A stretch of DNA of 37,801 nt from Microcoleaceae cyanobacterium (lineage in GTDB: Bacteria > Cyanobacteriota > Cyanobacteriia > Cyanobacteriales > Microcoleaceae): positions 1 to 37,801 of the forward strand of contig JBOFUV010000054.1 in assembly GCA_051652765.1 (NCBI GenBank), read 5' to 3'. Position numbers: made by a program. Shown here piece after piece: positions 1-6,000 of the stretch. The first letter of the stretch is position 1, and the number at the start of each line of letters is the position of its first letter.

Positions 1-3000
1 TAAGGGAGGCCCTGAGGTCATCGGGAGAAAGCACCAGAGCACAATCAACTGGAAATCGCTCCATGAGCTGTAAAGGCTTGCCCCGTAGAACTTGAGAGAG
101 ATTCAGTCGGATATTTGACCCGGTGGCTTCTACCTGGCTGAGGTGGATGCCCTGGTAAATGGTCTGGGTCGCTGAGATCGATGCTTTTGGCAGATAGCCA
201 GAGAGAATTGAACGATTACTGCCCGCAAGAGCAACCTTTAAGTTTTTGACTTGGTCAGCCTGCGATCGCAGCCATATCTGGATTGCCTGTGAAAGTGCTC
301 GGCCAACCCACTGACTTCCTTGGGAGTGATCCAAATCCATAATTAAGTAGTATGAACAATAAGCATTGAGGATTAGCATTGAGGACGCTGCAAAGGTTTC
401 TGAAGTAGCCCTACTGCTTTTCAACAAGTAGTGTAGTGTGATCATTCAACTTGACAACACCGAATAATAGGCGCGTCAGCAATTTGATCCAATCCAACAG
501 ATTTCAGTAAGCTGGATTTCTCCTGCATCAATTCCACACTTTGAGGTTTTTCAAGCAGCAATTGGTTGATCAAAGTCAATGCATCATACCAAATGCCATG
601 GGTGATATAAGCATTATAATTTTTCTCGGTTAGATCATTTGAGAGTTGAGTTCTCAGTTCAGAAGTTGGTTCAACAGGTTGAATCCAGCCATCAACTCTA
701 GGGTTTTTGGATGGATGTTCTGGATCGCAGACTAGCTCGAAAAACCAATGATACTCTTGGTTAGGTTCTAATGAAACTAAAGTTGAAGATAAGGAAACGC
801 TGATAATTCCTGGAGTTTCAGAAAGCTGAATCGTTATAGGTTGTTTAAGAACAGAACGTTGATTTTGATCCAATAATATGAGTTCTGCCTGATAAACTTG
901 GGTAGATTTATAGGGCACATAAAACCACAACGTTGGGGATGCACTCACGGTTAGCCCAAAGTTGTTCGGGGGAATCAATGCTGTTAGGGGCAAGGTCGTT
1001 GCCGGACAATTTCCCCGGCTCCCGCCACCTTGACGGTTTCCTGGCCAAGTTCTGCCATATCCATCAAAAGAACTAGTAAGGAGTAGAGCATTTTGAGGAA
1101 CTTCAGTCAATGTAGACAATGGGTAAATACTTAGGCCAATTTGCCAATCTAAGGCAAGAAAAATTGCCATTATCTTAAAATTTAACCTTGAATTTAACCT
1201 TGAATTTAACTTCATCCAATTCATCTTTTTACTCCTGCTAGAATAAACGAAATTCCCATAGGAATAATTGGTATCCATCCGCCGTTGATCCAAAGAATCA
1301 CAAAACTTGTTCCACCTAAAATAGTCAGAATAATACCCCCTGTGAAAAAATAAAAAATCAACGGGAGCTTTCGATAAAAATAAAACCTAGAGATTGCTTC
1401 TCCTAAAACAGCGCTGGTGAAAATTAACAGTACTTCTCCCCATAGGGGCAAGACCCATATTAAGGGGCGATCATCTTGAACAGCACTTAATATTTGACTC
1501 ACCATTTGGGCCTGAACAAATACCCCTGAAATATGTTGAATCGGGGCATAGGCTGCACTGTAAGGAGTCAGCAAACCATCTTCAATACTACGGGCATTTG
1601 TCCCAATTAAGATAATCCGATCTTTCACCCAAGATGAGTCAAATTGATTATTTAAAATTTCCCCTAGGGTAACAGTTTGAGCAGGGGCTTGAGCAGAACG
1701 ATAGTTTAGTAACACCTGATATCCTGCCGCATCTAGTTTTTGGTAACTTCCGGTCTGCGGTTCAATTTTTTTGAAATTAACTGTTCCAATCTGAAAGGAA
1801 TTTGGCAAAGTTTGGTTAAATTTAACGCCTTCAGAAGTTAAGTAATGTTGGACTATTTGAAAGCTAAAAGATTTGTCTGTGTCGCATCCATCAACCGGAT
1901 TCATCCCAAAGAATTGGCGACGGACAATTCCATCTGAATCAATCGGTACATCACTAAATCCAACCTGTTCTAATGGCATTTCACGAGGAGGAGCGATAGT
2001 AGGATTATTTTCACCCCCCCCCATTTCACAAACTGCAATTAAATTCTGATATAGACTCTTAGAGTGAGCTGAAGGTTCTAAAGAGTTCTGCGCTCCTGCT
2101 TGCAATAAAAAAGGCCGATAAATATCTAAACCAATCACTCGCGGTTGATGTTGATTGAGCTTTTCTAGCAACTGTTTCAAAGTTTGCTCTGATAATGAAC
2201 CCTGGCCATCCCTAGGGCTTTGGGCTTCGATATCTGCTTCAGTGATTGTAACAATTAACAAGCGAGGATCAAGGGATTCTTGAGGGCGTAATCTAACCAA
2301 TTGATCGAAGGTTTTTAACTCCAAATATTCTAATAATCCAAACCATCTGATGCCCGTGACTAAACTGGTAATTACTAAGCTTGCAATCAATAAAGACTGC
2401 CATTGAGGCCATTTTGATATGGTTTTTGGCCGCATGGGCTGCCGCAATTGTTGCCAGGTTGGAGGAGGCTCTGTCAGGTCTTGAAAGGTTGGATTTTGAA
2501 AAATTACTGGTAGCCAGCTAGCGCAGGGAAATTTATCTTCTAATCCTTGTAACCGTTCTCGCGCTTCTCGAACTGATAGTTCAAAGGATTTTCCACCAGA
2601 GAATGCAGTGAGGAAATATTTGAGAAATTCTTGAGCAACTCGATCTGGTATCAGCTCTCGCATCACAATCATTTGAGGAATCTGCAAATCACTCAATTGC
2701 CATGCTAAGCCCAACCCATCACAGGAGTTGAAAATTGCTAGTTTTAACCCTTGATGAACCGACTGTTTTAAACCATATTTCAACTCTTGAATGGTTAAAT
2801 TATCCCTAGGATTCAGGTAAATTTTTCCGGTATCCTGTTCTGTTTCACTGTGCCCAGCAAAGAACAGAATATCCCAGGGTTGTTCCCACAGGCGATCGCT
2901 CACAACTTGACGGTTAGGCTCTACTAAAAACGTCACCTCAGCATCCGGCAAACTTTCCAATAATTGCCGATCCCGACTCACCTGAATACCGGCACTGTGT

Positions 3001-6000
3001 CCTAGAATTGCCAGAATTCTCACCTTTTTTTTAGTTGTTGAAGGTGCGACTTTAATCGGTTTAAACCCTGGCGCACAGAATGTGATTTCTGCCTGTCGTG
3101 ACTCTACCCAATCCCACAGATGCCAAGGAAGTTTTTGCAATTGCTGATCGTCAGTTTGAATCAGCACTCTTAAAGTATCTTCTCGATTAATTTCATCTCG
3201 CAATCGTCGCTCAATTGGACGAAATTCAGCCACATCTAACCAGCGCAGAAACTGGTCAACTAATTGTTTGGCAGAGTACTGACAATTGTCAAGCCGAATG
3301 CCAATATTACCATCATAAATAATCGCTTCTGGGTTGATTCGATAGGGTGCCTCAATCCTTCGATACTGTGTGTTCCAATGATTTTGTAAACAAGTTACAA
3401 GCTCTGAGTTGGGAGGTAACCTGCCAACCATTTCGAAGCAGCGATTACCTCCCGACCAGATTTCTAATGTAACCTGTAATCCTTGAATTAAATCACCATT
3501 AAATCTGAGGAGAACTTGTTTGTTCATCACCCATTCCTCTTAAGGTTAAAGAAAAAAGGTTTCCGTAATTCTGGATGTGCCATGGATAATCTGAACTCCA
3601 AAGCCTTCTCCAGTTTCACCACTAAATTTTAGCTGCAGACTTTCAGTACTTCGAGTTTCTGCTTGCATGACCGTTGCTTGTTCCTCATCCAAAATAGATA
3701 GTTTTAAATCTGGAGGCAAGTAAGTCTGATTTTCGATCGGATATAATTCAACCCAAATTTCCATTTCTAAAGCTGTTCTAGGAGTAATCCGAACCAGCAA
3801 TCCAACAGATTCTTGTGGATTATTTAGACTCAACACTTTAACCCGTTCAACCATAGTTTTTGTGCTCTTCAACGCTTGAGAATTGCTATTCCCATGATTA
3901 ACTGTTCCACTCCGCCAAGCCATCTGAGGCGGAGCCAGCAAACTATTTACCGTTTCCCAACCCGTTTCAAACACATTTTGTAACCATTGATCCAATTTTA
4001 CCGAAGCTTCTAACTGACTAGAATACTTGAGAAAATCATCTAGAGATTTCACTTGAATCAAGGGAATTGCTTCAGCTTCAGCCTTTCTTAAAAAACCTAG
4101 GATTCGAGCTTCTGTCAGGGCTGAATTAAGCTGAACAGCAAAGTAACCTCTGCGATCGCTCCATGTTTCAGGCGGAATATGAACTGTGGATTCATCCGGC
4201 AATACTGGACGACACTCAAATCTCCCAATCTGATTGACTTCTAAATCGGCAACATCCATGAATCGTTGGATCATCGGATCAAAACTATTGCTTGATTCCC
4301 AATTTGTTCGGAATCCCATACAGTTTAAATAAAAATCAACGGCATATACACTTAATGTATTGAGATACACTTGTTTAGCACGGTTGGCATCAAATTGCTG
4401 TTGACGAAATTGGCTCGCAATTTGATGGGCTTCTGAATATAAAGGAACGGTAAAAGTTAAAGTTTCCATCATAACCTCCAGAGTCTTCATGAGTTTAATA
4501 GCAACCGGATTTGATCTGAAATTGTGGTGTAGGCATCTTGTCTACTATCTTACAGAACCATGCCTAAAAAACCAATTCTAGGATTGTAAATAGTCTCGAA
4601 AATAAGGGGTGAACTCTTTCAATCTCTTCTTGAAAAATTCGTAAAGGGATGAAATAGGGACATTTAACTCCGCTGAAATCTCTTGCCATTTTCGATCTCG
4701 CCAGATCTTTTCTAAAGCCAGGAACTGAAATGTTGCCTTGGATTGACCTTTAATATGATCTTGAGTGAACATCTGATTTGGATTTTCCTCAATCAACTGT
4801 TTTAATTCCTCAGATTCAGAAACTTGATCTTGAGCCGGAAAAAAGTGATCCAAATCTTCTAAATTTGGTAAAGAGATTTCAGGTTGAGTCTTTTGATCTT
4901 TGGGTAAATGAGTCATTCCTTTCTTGAGATACCGATCAAAATTATCCATGAATCGCTTTTCTAATAAAAAGTTGCACCACGCCATCACATCCTGTTCCGG
5001 TTTATAACGGTCAATTTTCTGACAAATCTCCATCAACATGCTGCTCAGGGCTTCACTGTAAAGATCATCATAAACTCCCTGAGAAAAGGGAAAAGACCCT
5101 TTTTTAGGGTGACCCAAATGACCCGACTTTAAAATTCCTTCGACTAATTGGTTGAGAGTTCGCCGACGTTCATAACTTTGGGCTGGGTATACCTGAGCAC
5201 TTTTGGCTAGCTGATTGAGTTGGCGATCGCCATCATAACTCCCCCTAATCATGGACAGTTCCTCCCGAATTCAAGGGTTCTATTTTAGTTTCAGCTTTTA
5301 GAACAAATTTTTTCGGAAAATTCAGTTTTTTTTACAAAACTTCAGGTCAATCTCCAATCTGAAAAACTTTTCAAATTTCCGAAAAAAACTAAGCCTACTC
5401 CAGAAACACATACAGAACAACTCACTTGAAACTACAAGGAAGAACCAAAATGGCGATTATTATTGGAACACCTGCAAGCGACCAGATTAATTTGACTGCA
5501 ACTCCTGAATCCCTACGTACAACCAATAACGCTGATACAGTAACGGCGAATGGTGGGGCTGATACAGTTCGAGGAGGAGGAGGAAATGATTTGATCGAGG
5601 GCAACTCAGGGAATGATAGTTTGCTCGGTGAGGCTGGACGAGACACAATCTATGGCGGTGTTGGTGCTGAAACAATTTATGGAGGATCAGACAACGATTA
5701 CCTCGATGGTGGCACTCCCCTAACCTTTGAACTGGGTGATGATCGAATTTACGGAGAGGGAGGGAATGACTTCCTGCTAGGTGGTCTTGGCAAGGATTTC
5801 CTTGATGGAGGAGACAATAACGACACCCTCAAAGGTCATGACAATGATGACAGGCTATTTGGTGGTGCTGGCAACGACAAAATGTACGGCGAGAATGGCA
5901 AGGACAACCTTCAAGGTGATGGGGGTAACGACAGCATGTATGGCGGCGCTGACAATGATACGTTCAATGCGTGGTGGGGGTATGATCTGCTCAGGGGTGA

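What a model noticed while it worked through the whole genome (the two positions that open the first line are those of the whole stretch)
1221..5252. DUF1822 is a soluble anti-sigma factor for a family of unannotated ECF sigma factors linked to CHAT protease sensors
All 7 DUF1822 genes directly follow an ECF-type sigma gene, six of which have no Pfam or NCBIfam row; three are followed by a CHAT protease fused to a sensor (CHASE2 or periplasmic binding domain). A complex model places the N-terminal half of DUF1822 on both the N- and C-terminal domains of the sigma factor, as anti-sigma factors do, which suggests protease-triggered sigma release.
Evidence so far: Gene order 7 of 7; DUF1822 lies near CHAT in 1117 of 1342 genomes with both (neighbours.tsv, 175). 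17 of 17 relatives' loci of g01659 carry DUF1822 next to it (186). Profile of g01659 family hits ECF SigK, E 1.3e-4 (191). predict_complex g01659 + g01658 with alignments: score 0.84 in three runs, best of 3 controls 0.00; the mark was reached by 116 of 157 solved and 2 of 215 mismatched pairs; runs agree in at least 80% of contacts, partner pLDDT 83; contacts on sigma residues 25-78 and 140-219 (213).
(Added by a program. Inside this text positions count along the whole contig: contig position 1 is position 1 of the stretch shown here. "Call 12" and the like, gene names such as g00115 and contig names such as C1 are that model's own, and its searches are not shown. The text may have been shortened before it was handed on; [...] marks where a part breaks off. 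The agent that wrote the report below was given it as the finding of a first reader that could run no searches.)

Follow-up and report, generated by a model that had tools for sequence, protein, structure and literature searches.

The report
Protease-gated sigma factor switch in cyanobacteria
These neighbouring cyanobacterial genes probably form a switch in which a membrane sensor with a caspase-like protease cuts a two-part inhibitor (DUF1822) and frees a dedicated sigma factor; the gene set was catalogued by computer in 2021, while the inhibitor role and the cut site proposed here are untested.

Summary
The operon is real: divergent ECF-type sigma > DUF1822 > EACC2-CHAT-CHASE2 (His227/Cys270 intact) > DUF928. 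All 7 DUF1822 genes follow a sigma-like gene, as do 93 of 101 in relatives; 65 of 101 directly precede an EACC2-CHAT protease. The neighbourhood is in print (Kaur 2021), and this scan found it before on other DNA. Added here: the DUF1822 model is not TPR. It has an N-terminal restriction-endonuclease fold with degenerate catalytic motifs, a disordered linker with a conserved R-S site (Arg193) like the HetF cut site in the anti-sigma PatU3, and an Ig-like C domain. The halves travel separately. N stays with sigma factors, even in CHAT-free loci where it is fused to anti-sigma-like segments. The linker plus C domain stays with CHAT and carries other cargo (PIN, TRADD-N, or a MazF fold as in the anti-sigma CalpT). 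Best reading (0.5): anti-sigma cut by the receptor protease, releasing sigma. 'Unannotated' is overstated.

The parts
4578..5252 (-). Divergent ECF-type sigma factor, 'short' family (224 aa): sigma2-like aa 6-111, flexible linker, sigma4-like aa 146-223
   Evidence: Family profile hits Mtb SigE E 5e-4, RpoE 0.0026, SigK 0.0033. Model pLDDT 89. Sigma2 of SigC Z 9.7, rmsd 2.0, 86 aligned. 1090 clusters at E<=0.001.
3546..4490 (-). DUF1822 protein (314 aa), proposed soluble anti-sigma factor and protease substrate
   Evidence: PF08852 E 4e-67; no hydrophobic segment; two-domain model pLDDT 87.6
3936..4469 (-). DUF1822 N domain (aa 8-185): PD-(D/E)xK restriction-endonuclease-like fold with degenerate catalytic motifs; proposed sigma-binding half
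   Evidence: I-Ssp6803I Z 9.7, rmsd 2.9, 114 aligned; Holliday junction resolvase Z 8.8. D82 52/108, E92 67/108, R94 73/108. Tracks sigma.
3912..3914 (-). Arg193 in the disordered linker (A-W-R-S): proposed cut site
   Evidence: Linker aa 188-210 has pLDDT <50. Arg in this column in 93 of 108. 'RS' in 63 of 102 linkers against shuffle mean 22, maximum 35. HetF cuts PatU3 at Y-R117|S118.
3549..3860 (-). DUF1822 C domain (aa 211-314): Ig-like beta-sandwich; proposed protease-docking half
   Evidence: Ig-like matches at Z about 7; tracks EACC2; precedes EACC2-CHAT with other cargo domains
1221..3530 (-). Membrane receptor protease (769 aa): EACC2-like N domain (about aa 1-165, named from the published architecture), CHAT catalytic domain with His227 and Cys270, TM helix, periplasmic CHASE2 (aa 388-710), C-terminal TM helices
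   Evidence: CHAT E 2e-11, CHASE2 E 2e-60; His227 and Cys270 invariant in 67 of 67 aligned; hydrophobic segments 379-397, 689-707, 721-739
442..1293 (-). DUF928 protein, probably exported. Likely start is the ATG at 1224, which overlaps the CHAT stop (ATGA). Possible ligand or co-sensor for CHASE2 (inference).
   Evidence: PF06051 E 5e-59; overlap read from the sequence

Best explanation
A three-part proteolytic sigma switch. [quoted passage not shown] (2) DUF1822 holds it inactive through its N-terminal domain, probably a catalytically dead restriction-endonuclease fold reused for protein binding (inferred). (3) The Ig-like C domain docks DUF1822 on the cytoplasmic EACC2-CHAT module of the membrane receptor (inferred). 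(4) A periplasmic signal read by CHASE2, perhaps via DUF928, activates the His227/Cys270 protease, which cuts after Arg193 in the disordered linker (inferred by analogy with HetF/PatU3). (5) The N fragment is probably degraded, as for CalpT and PatU3, and sigma joins RNA polymerase (inferred). Step odds: sigma about 0.93; DUF1822 an inhibitor of it about 0.75; linker cut by CHAT-type proteases as the trigger about 0.65.
For: Strict 1:1 sigma-DUF1822 pairing in this genome. 93 of 101 in relatives. Reciprocally, 41 of 49 short sigmas have DUF1822 within 1.6 kb downstream and 4 more within 7 kb. The DUF1822 tree splits by partner sigma type. Crossed co-variation: DufN~sigma|DufC 0.42 and 0.68 against DufC~sigma|DufN 0.13 and 0.09; DufC~EACC2|DufN 0.72 against DufN~EACC2|DufC 0.19. 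N domain without C: upstream of an ECF sigma in 44 of 56 family-f23 genomes (homology 97%), followed by a segment whose best PDB hit is anti-sigma RsiW (E 0.3, weak), a TM helix and TonB_C; fused to HxxxCxxC in two proteins of one genome. C domain without N: 6 of 8 directly precede EACC2-CHAT, 1 more is one gene away. One carries a PemK/MazF fold next to an ECF sigma, the layout of CalpT. Conserved linker Arg matches the HetF site and the near-invariant PatU Arg. Other proteases replace EACC2-CHAT at 7 loci. Catalytic dyad invariant.
Against: No binding, inhibition or cleavage is measured. 34 of 101 DUF1822 have no EACC2-CHAT in the fetched locus. The Arg motif is as common without an adjacent CHAT (RS 21/35 against 42/67), so it needs proteases acting in trans or has another role. 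The crossed co-variation is also what gene order alone gives (sigma abuts N, C abuts EACC2). In the long class DufN and DufC track the catalytic CHAT part equally (0.53 against 0.51). In f23 and G025 a classical anti-sigma-like segment lies beside the N domain, so that segment rather than N may bind sigma. The zinc-motif fusion was found in only 1 of 47 genomes of that class. The window's DUF1822 has no known anti-sigma domain. The Foldseek sigma hits are individually non-significant (best E 0.028).
Confidence: 0.5

Rival explanations
1. DUF1822 is an anti-sigma factor but is not the protease's substrate. The receptor sequesters it through the Ig domain (partner switching), or the CHAT domain cuts itself or another protein (the autopeptidase step proposed by Kaur et al.).
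For: A third of pairs lack an adjacent EACC2-CHAT; the Arg motif is not enriched in CHAT-adjacent copies; Kaur et al. propose autopeptidase activation
Against: The Arg sits in a disordered, otherwise variable linker, far above shuffle levels, and by eye is kept with unrelated cargo domains; three unlinked EACC2-CHAT genes match three unlinked sigma pairs in number
Confidence: 0.2
2. Conflict or cell-death system: the N domain is a latent nuclease effector released by the protease, and the sigma factor only drives the locus or a parallel response.
For: PD-(D/E)xK fold; a D...[DE]xR motif is near-invariant in f23; alternative cargos are also nuclease folds (PIN, MazF); some CHAT partners carry STAND/NB-ARC, WD40 or TPR domains; Kaur et al. 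class EACC2 systems with counter-invader systems
Against: The motif I acid is replaced by Val/Leu, Lys mostly by Arg, and D82 is kept in only 52 of 108. The N domain co-varies with sigma. The f23 version is single-copy in 58 of 61 genomes and membrane-anchored, unlike a mobile effector. Most sensors are CHASE2 or periplasmic binding domains.
Confidence: 0.13
3. DUF1822 binds the sigma factor but as a co-activator or stabiliser that these divergent sigmas need, and proteolysis turns the response off rather than on.
For: Co-occurrence and co-variation carry no sign; one protein fuses a long sigma directly to the DUF1822 C domain (L224)
Against: The tested analogues with this layout, PatU3 and CalpT, are inhibitors; the N domain sits beside anti-sigma-like segments in other lineages
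Confidence: 0.12

Closest known systems
EACC2-caspase systems with ECF sigma and DUF1822 (Kaur, Iyer, Burroughs, Aravind 2021, PMC8195603)
   Same: Same genes and order; constant EACC2+caspase module with a variable sensor including CHASE2; sigma proposed as the output. This locus is a member.
   Different: The paper is computational, calls DUF1822 a 'TPR protein', proposes autopeptidase activation and gives DUF1822 no role. The model here shows no TPR. The supplement's 'TRADD-N+TPRs' proteins named DUF1822 correspond, by my reading, to TRADD-N plus the Ig-like C domain.
sigmaHetZ - PatU3 - HetF of Anabaena PCC 7120 (PMC13342950, PMC9457339)
   Same: ECF-type sigma co-transcribed with a soluble inhibitor; a membrane-bound CHAT protease cuts the inhibitor at Y-R117|S118. 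This is what the module most likely works like.
   Different: Different families. The window sigma does not match the HetZ models and its CHAT scores 29 bits against the HetF cut-off of 1200. The genome has a separate hetZ-patU pair and a hetF-like gene. PatU and DUF1822 N halves do not align; the C halves align weakly (37%, 48 columns).
CalpL-CalpT-CalpS (bioRxiv 10.1101/2024.05.08.593097) and Craspase Csx29-Csx30-CASP-sigma
   Same: Two-domain anti-sigma with a nuclease-fold N domain, a cut in a poorly structured linker, a small C domain bound by the protease, then degradation and sigma release. One DUF1822-C protein has the MazF fold of CalpT.
   Different: Those are CRISPR effectors triggered by cA4 or target RNA, and CalpL is a Lon protease. 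Here the trigger is a membrane sensor and the N domain is a PD-(D/E)xK fold.
Class I anti-sigma factors (RseA, RsiW, ZAS) with regulated proteolysis (general knowledge; RsiW hit)
   Same: Sigma and inhibitor co-encoded; release by proteolysis; the f23 relatives have the classical cytoplasmic domain-TM-periplasmic domain layout
   Different: The window's DUF1822 is soluble, has no ASD or ZAS match, and the sensor is on the protease rather than on the anti-sigma

Membership tests
ECF (group 4) sigma-70 factor | sigma2 and sigma4 domains joined by a short linker, no sigma1.2/sigma3 | tested here: met
   Profile matches both regions of SigE; two helical domains with a flexible linker; sigma2 Z 9.7 and sigma4 Z 6-7 (Z of this size is moderate for helical folds)
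ECF (group 4) sigma-70 factor | Passes curated Pfam or NCBIfam sigma cut-offs | tested here: not met
   Window protein: TIGR02937 14 bits against cut-off 42.9, no Pfam sigma row; 55 of 98 upstream partners in relatives match TIGR02937 at E<=0.01
ECF (group 4) sigma-70 factor | Binds core RNA polymerase and directs promoter-specific initiation | not testable with these tools
   Needs biochemistry
EACC2-caspase system (Kaur 2021) | Constant N-terminal alpha+beta domain plus caspase-like domain, variable C-terminal sensor | tested here: met
   Conserved about 360-aa module with CHASE2, periplasmic binding, STAND/WD40, pentapeptide or TPR tails. No EACC2 profile was available, so the name rests on the architecture.
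EACC2-caspase system (Kaur 2021) | Neighbouring ECF sigma and DUF1822 genes | tested here: met
EACC2-caspase system (Kaur 2021) | DUF1822 is a TPR protein | tested here: not met
   Model pLDDT 87.6 is alpha/beta plus beta-sandwich; some paralogues carry short HEAT inserts
Clan CD CHAT protease | His-Cys catalytic dyad | tested here: met
   His227 and Cys270 invariant in 67 of 67
Anti-sigma factor | Binds its sigma factor | not tested
Comparative support only.
Anti-sigma factor | Inhibits sigma-dependent transcription | not testable with these tools
   Needs experiment
Class I (ASD/ZAS) anti-sigma | ASD helical bundle or HxxxCxxC motif | tested here: not met
   No match in the window protein; present only in distant fusions
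HetZ-PatU-HetF module | Sigma of the HetZ family and protease of the HetF family | tested here: not met
   true hetZ and a hetF-like gene lie elsewhere
HetZ-PatU-HetF module | Inhibitor homologous to PatU | tested here: inconclusive
   C halves: hhalign 37%, E 3.6e-4, score 26 against maximum 17 in 30 shuffles; whole-profile probabilities 6% and 0.2%; N halves unrelated
HetZ-PatU-HetF module | Arg-Ser cut site in the inhibitor | tested here: inconclusive
   Motif present and enriched; cleavage not testable
CalpT-type anti-sigma | MazF-like N domain | tested here: not met
   Window N domain is PD-(D/E)xK-like; MazF fold only in relative L223
PD-(D/E)xK nuclease | Fold | tested here: met
   Z 9.7, rmsd 2.9, 114 aligned; five nucleases of this fold among the top 18 rows besides the best
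PD-(D/E)xK nuclease | Conserved E...D...(D/E)xK catalytic set | tested here: not met
   Position 48 Val/Leu 91/108; D82 52/108; E92 67/108; position 94 Arg 73, Lys 19 of 108. The mapping onto Hjc motifs is from recall.

The most novel reading that the evidence does not exclude
The Arg linker plus Ig-like C domain of DUF1822 is a portable caspase-substrate tag. Cyanobacteria use it to wire many receptor-CHAT proteases (2 to 10 per genome in the 20 searched) to transcription regulators, through inhibitors built from dead nuclease folds: restriction-endonuclease-like for two overlooked sigma families, MazF-like for another ECF, PIN for XRE regulators. This would be a general receptor-caspase signalling layer, and PatU-HetF of heterocyst control would be one distant, tested offshoot of it.
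Probability: 0.3. Interest if true: 0.8.

Novelty: new variant of a known kind. Interest (0 to 1): 0.6.

Why it matters
If right, it assigns a function to DUF1822 (found in 98 of 151 sampled genomes of the phylum) and defines a new structural class of anti-sigma factor. It also adds several sigma factors per genome that profile-based surveys of cyanobacterial sigmas would miss (six of seven here fall under the cut-offs). It would give the many cyanobacterial membrane CHAT proteases a substrate and an output, a long-standing gap for bacterial caspase-like proteins outside CRISPR and HetF. The single predicted site (Arg193) and dyad (His227/Cys270) make it directly testable with three purified proteins.

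Tried and rejected
Complex model of EACC2-CHAT(1-365) with DUF1822, each with a 67-row alignment: no answer, 0.27 and 0.07 against a mark of 0.32; not evidence either way. Sequencing runs: no RNA holder listed. Foldseek on the DUF1822 model: nothing at E<=0.001; CalpT and Csx30 chains were not among the listed fold matches, which does not exclude a relation. ESM Atlas with the N domain: no usable hit. PDB sequence search with the shallow sigma alignment and with the C-domain profile: nothing meaningful. Promoter and terminator scan at chance level, 10 against 12.5 and 4 against 4.8. My guess that the about 870-aa genes after one DUF1822 clade were HetF was not borne out: two are TPR-CHAT, one is a chloride channel. 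PatU-DUF1822 homology not established. The zinc-motif fusion was not found in 46 other genomes of that class or in the genome collection. Literature searches: DUF1822, 2 papers; EACC2, 1 relevant; DUF928, 1 listing; HetZ/PatU3; CHAT/anti-sigma/CHASE2; ECF classification; CalpT (120). None that I read assigns an anti-sigma role to DUF1822. Subscription papers, bioRxiv supplements and supplementary file 13 of PMC8195603 were not seen and could bear on this.
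Full report
OBSERVATION. The window (G000:C54) carries on the minus strand a 224-aa ORF (4578-5252), DUF1822 (3546-4490), a 769-aa CHAT+CHASE2 protein (1221-3530) and DUF928 (442-1293). The gaps are 87 and 15 bases, then an ATGA overlap. The genome has 7 DUF1822 genes, each directly after a sigma-like gene. Profiles of a short and a long sigma family give exactly these 7 strong hits among 7185 ORFs. Only the C34 sigma passes a curated cut-off. 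Three modules are followed by CHAT-sensor genes and C74 has one upstream.

THE SIGMA. Five of 37 homologues are named 'sigma-70 family' by NCBI or UniRef, so the family is under-annotated rather than unannotated. A 133-row profile hits Mtb SigE (E 5e-4), RpoE (0.0026) and SigK (0.0033). The AlphaFold model (pLDDT 89) has two helical domains and a flexible linker. Foldseek rows are mostly sigma factors but none is significant (best E 0.028). VIA-align ranks the sigma2 domain of SigC first (Z 9.7, rmsd 2.0, 86 aligned), with other ECFs next. The family spans 1090 clusters at 50% identity.

CONTEXT IN RELATIVES. DUF1822 was found in 98 of 151 genomes of the phylum. From the 150 listed of 220 matches I fetched 100 regions, mostly one genome per genus. 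Left out were the own genome, most same-genus genomes, a few further rows and the 70 unlisted weak matches. The regions hold 101 DUF1822 genes. 93 have a sigma-like gene directly upstream by my profiles, and 3 more have it one gene further. Independently, 55 of 98 upstream proteins match TIGR02937 at E<=0.01. 65 of 101 are directly followed by an EACC2-CHAT gene (one a fragment), 67 have one in the locus, and 34 have none. His227 and Cys270 are invariant in 67 of 67 aligned modules. At 7 loci another protease sits there instead: two TPR-CHAT, two C14, two trypsin-like, one M48. Reciprocal counts in 20 genomes: 41 of 49 short sigmas have DUF1822 within 1.6 kb, 4 within 7 kb, 4 none. 67 of 91 EACC2-CHAT genes (two rows of one gene merged) have a DUF1822 C domain within 3.2 kb upstream. 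Per-genome counts of the two correlate at 0.92 (kin and genome size not controlled). The DUF1822 tree splits by long or short partner sigma, while the CHAT tree mixes the two. The sigma pair is therefore the core and the sensor is exchangeable.

ANATOMY OF DUF1822. The model (pLDDT 87.6) has an N domain (about aa 8-185), a disordered linker (188-210) and a beta-sandwich (214-313). It is not a TPR protein. The N domain's best match is the PD-(D/E)xK endonuclease I-Ssp6803I (Z 9.7, rmsd 2.9, 114 aligned), then Holliday junction resolvases; the C domain matches Ig-like folds at Z about 7. The catalytic set is degenerate: D82 52/108, E92 67/108, Arg rather than Lys at 94 in 73/108, and a hydrophobic residue where I expect motif I (motif mapping recalled). 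The linker holds an Arg in one column in 93 of 108 sequences, followed by Ser or Gly in 61 of 93. Without alignment, 'RS' occurs in 63 of 102 linkers (shuffle mean 22, maximum 35 of 1000) and [FWYLM]R[SG] in 43 of 102 (mean 7, maximum 17); 6 sequences lacking the anchor Trp were dropped. In the window this is A-W-R193-S. HetF cuts PatU3 between R117 and S118 after Tyr116, and PatU homologues keep a near-invariant Arg at about the same distance from the C-terminus. Against: the motif is as common in copies without an adjacent EACC2-CHAT (RS 21/35 against 42/67). This genome has three unlinked EACC2-CHAT genes and three unlinked sigma pairs, which would allow action in trans.

THE TWO HALVES TRAVEL SEPARATELY. 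Distance correlations are crossed: N follows sigma (partial 0.42 in 36 short and 0.68 in 26 long modules, against 0.13 and 0.09 for C) and C follows EACC2 (0.72 against 0.19 in 68). Gene order alone could produce this, and in the long class the catalytic part shows no preference (0.51 against 0.53). N without C: in family f23 (about 2-Mb genomes with flagellar genes; non-photosynthetic relatives by my inference) a homologous N domain (hhalign 97%; Pfam DUF1822 in 27 of 32) occurs in 58 of 61 genomes. It lies upstream of an ECF sigma in 44 of 56 genomes with both. In the three loci read in full, no CHAT was found in the proteins scanned; N is followed by a helical segment whose best PDB hit is the anti-sigma RsiW (E 0.3, weak), an acidic linker, a TM helix and, in two of three, TonB_C. 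In G025 two N domains are followed by HxxxCxxC, one with a zf-HC2 hit; this was not found in 46 other genomes of the class. These fusions tie N to anti-sigma function but leave open which segment touches sigma. Three cyanobacterial N-only proteins lack EACC2-CHAT and a fourth ends at a contig edge. C without N: of 9 further loci fetched, one was an ordinary DUF1822; of the other 8, six directly precede EACC2-CHAT, one has it a gene further and one has none. Their cargo is PIN behind an XRE gene (2), TRADD-N (2 by Pfam, 1 by resemblance), none (1), a fused long sigma (1), or a PemK/MazF fold (TM 0.78 by target) next to an ECF sigma (1). The last repeats the layout of the anti-sigma CalpT. By eye all eight keep a linker Arg.

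MECHANISM. Shown by sequence and models: gene order, folds, intact dyad, conserved linker Arg, separate travel of the halves. Inferred: N binds and silences sigma; C docks on EACC2-CHAT; a CHASE2 signal triggers a cut after Arg193; the N fragment is degraded and sigma released (0.5 overall). Rivals: anti-sigma without cleavage (0.2), latent nuclease effector (0.13), co-activator (0.12).

WHAT IS KNOWN. Kaur et al. [quoted passage not shown] This locus is a member of that system. The tested analogue is sigmaHetZ-PatU3-HetF (PMC13342950, parts 1-2 of 7 and passages; PMC9457339, part 1 of 5 and passages). It works alike but is not the same family, and PatU homology is inconclusive. CalpLTS and Craspase give the same logic in CRISPR systems (10.1101/2024.05.08.593097, passages). 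Passages of two sigma surveys (PMC11119718; 10.1101/2019.12.11.873521) did not mention this family. DUF1822 occurs in only two held papers (the second is a mutation table). Eight earlier notes of this scan report the same module in other genomes.

VERDICT. Real and widespread; a new variant of a known kind. The gene set and the general mechanism are known. The anti-sigma role of DUF1822, its fold, the cut site and the portable linker-C tag were not found in print in my searches and remain untested. Interest 0.6.

Noticed in passing
window 10865-12037 (+): HetZ-related protein 2 (NF037965, 572 bits over cut-off 400): another probable HetZ-type sigma factor, 5.6 kb from the module; the genome has three HetZ-like genes
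   Followed up: no
window 442-1293 (-): DUF928 has a G-G-G-S-R-G stretch before its folded domain, resembling the A-G-A-R-S linkers of one DUF1822 clade; it could be a cut site for the secreted TPS-CHAT proteins seen at C74
   Followed up: no
window 35546-37516 (-): 656-aa protein with a Peptidase_C14 caspase domain (E 2e-17), not linked to the module
   Followed up: no
window 5426-6415 (+): 329-aa calcium-binding repeat (HemolysinCabind) protein transcribed divergently from the sigma gene; a candidate target or neighbour by chance
   Followed up: no
window 28987-30366 (+) and 25821-26270 (+): 459-aa probable coiled-coil protein and a 149-aa ORF with no Pfam match over cut-off, near exopolysaccharide genes (18982-23554, 30594-35264)
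   Followed up: no
G000 C35:29334-31718, C97:8036-10843, C42:2102-4660: Three EACC2-CHAT genes without sigma or DUF1822 neighbours; C42 falls in the CHAT clade whose partners group with the unlinked C106 pair
   Followed up: partly
L013:8593-9222 (G000 C115): 209-aa EACC2-only ORF without the catalytic dyad, between two full EACC2-CHAT receptors; a fragment or a possible decoy
   Followed up: no
L053:4889-11743, L054, L055: Conserved f23 trio: DUF1822-N/ASD-like/acidic linker/TM/TonB_C, ECF sigma, double-zinc-ribbon AAA-TPR protein, near flagellar export genes
   Followed up: partly
L223:5801-8101: ECF sigma followed by a MazF-fold + HEAT + DUF1822-C protein, a CalpT-like layout; no CRISPR gene recognised among the locus ORFs
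   Followed up: partly
L229:5296-8930, L230:4426-8336: XRE regulator > PIN + DUF1822-C > EACC2-CHAT; the PIN acidic residues look degenerate by eye
   Followed up: partly
L224:5013-7145: Long sigma factor fused directly to the DUF1822 C domain
   Followed up: no
P0229, P0271: The short sigma occurs as the C-terminal domain of 1153-aa and 643-aa multidomain proteins that look like conflict-system components
   Followed up: no
L063, L135: The two DUF1822 followed by trypsin-like proteases have F-K-S instead of F-R-S in the linker; they are close relatives, so one event
   Followed up: no
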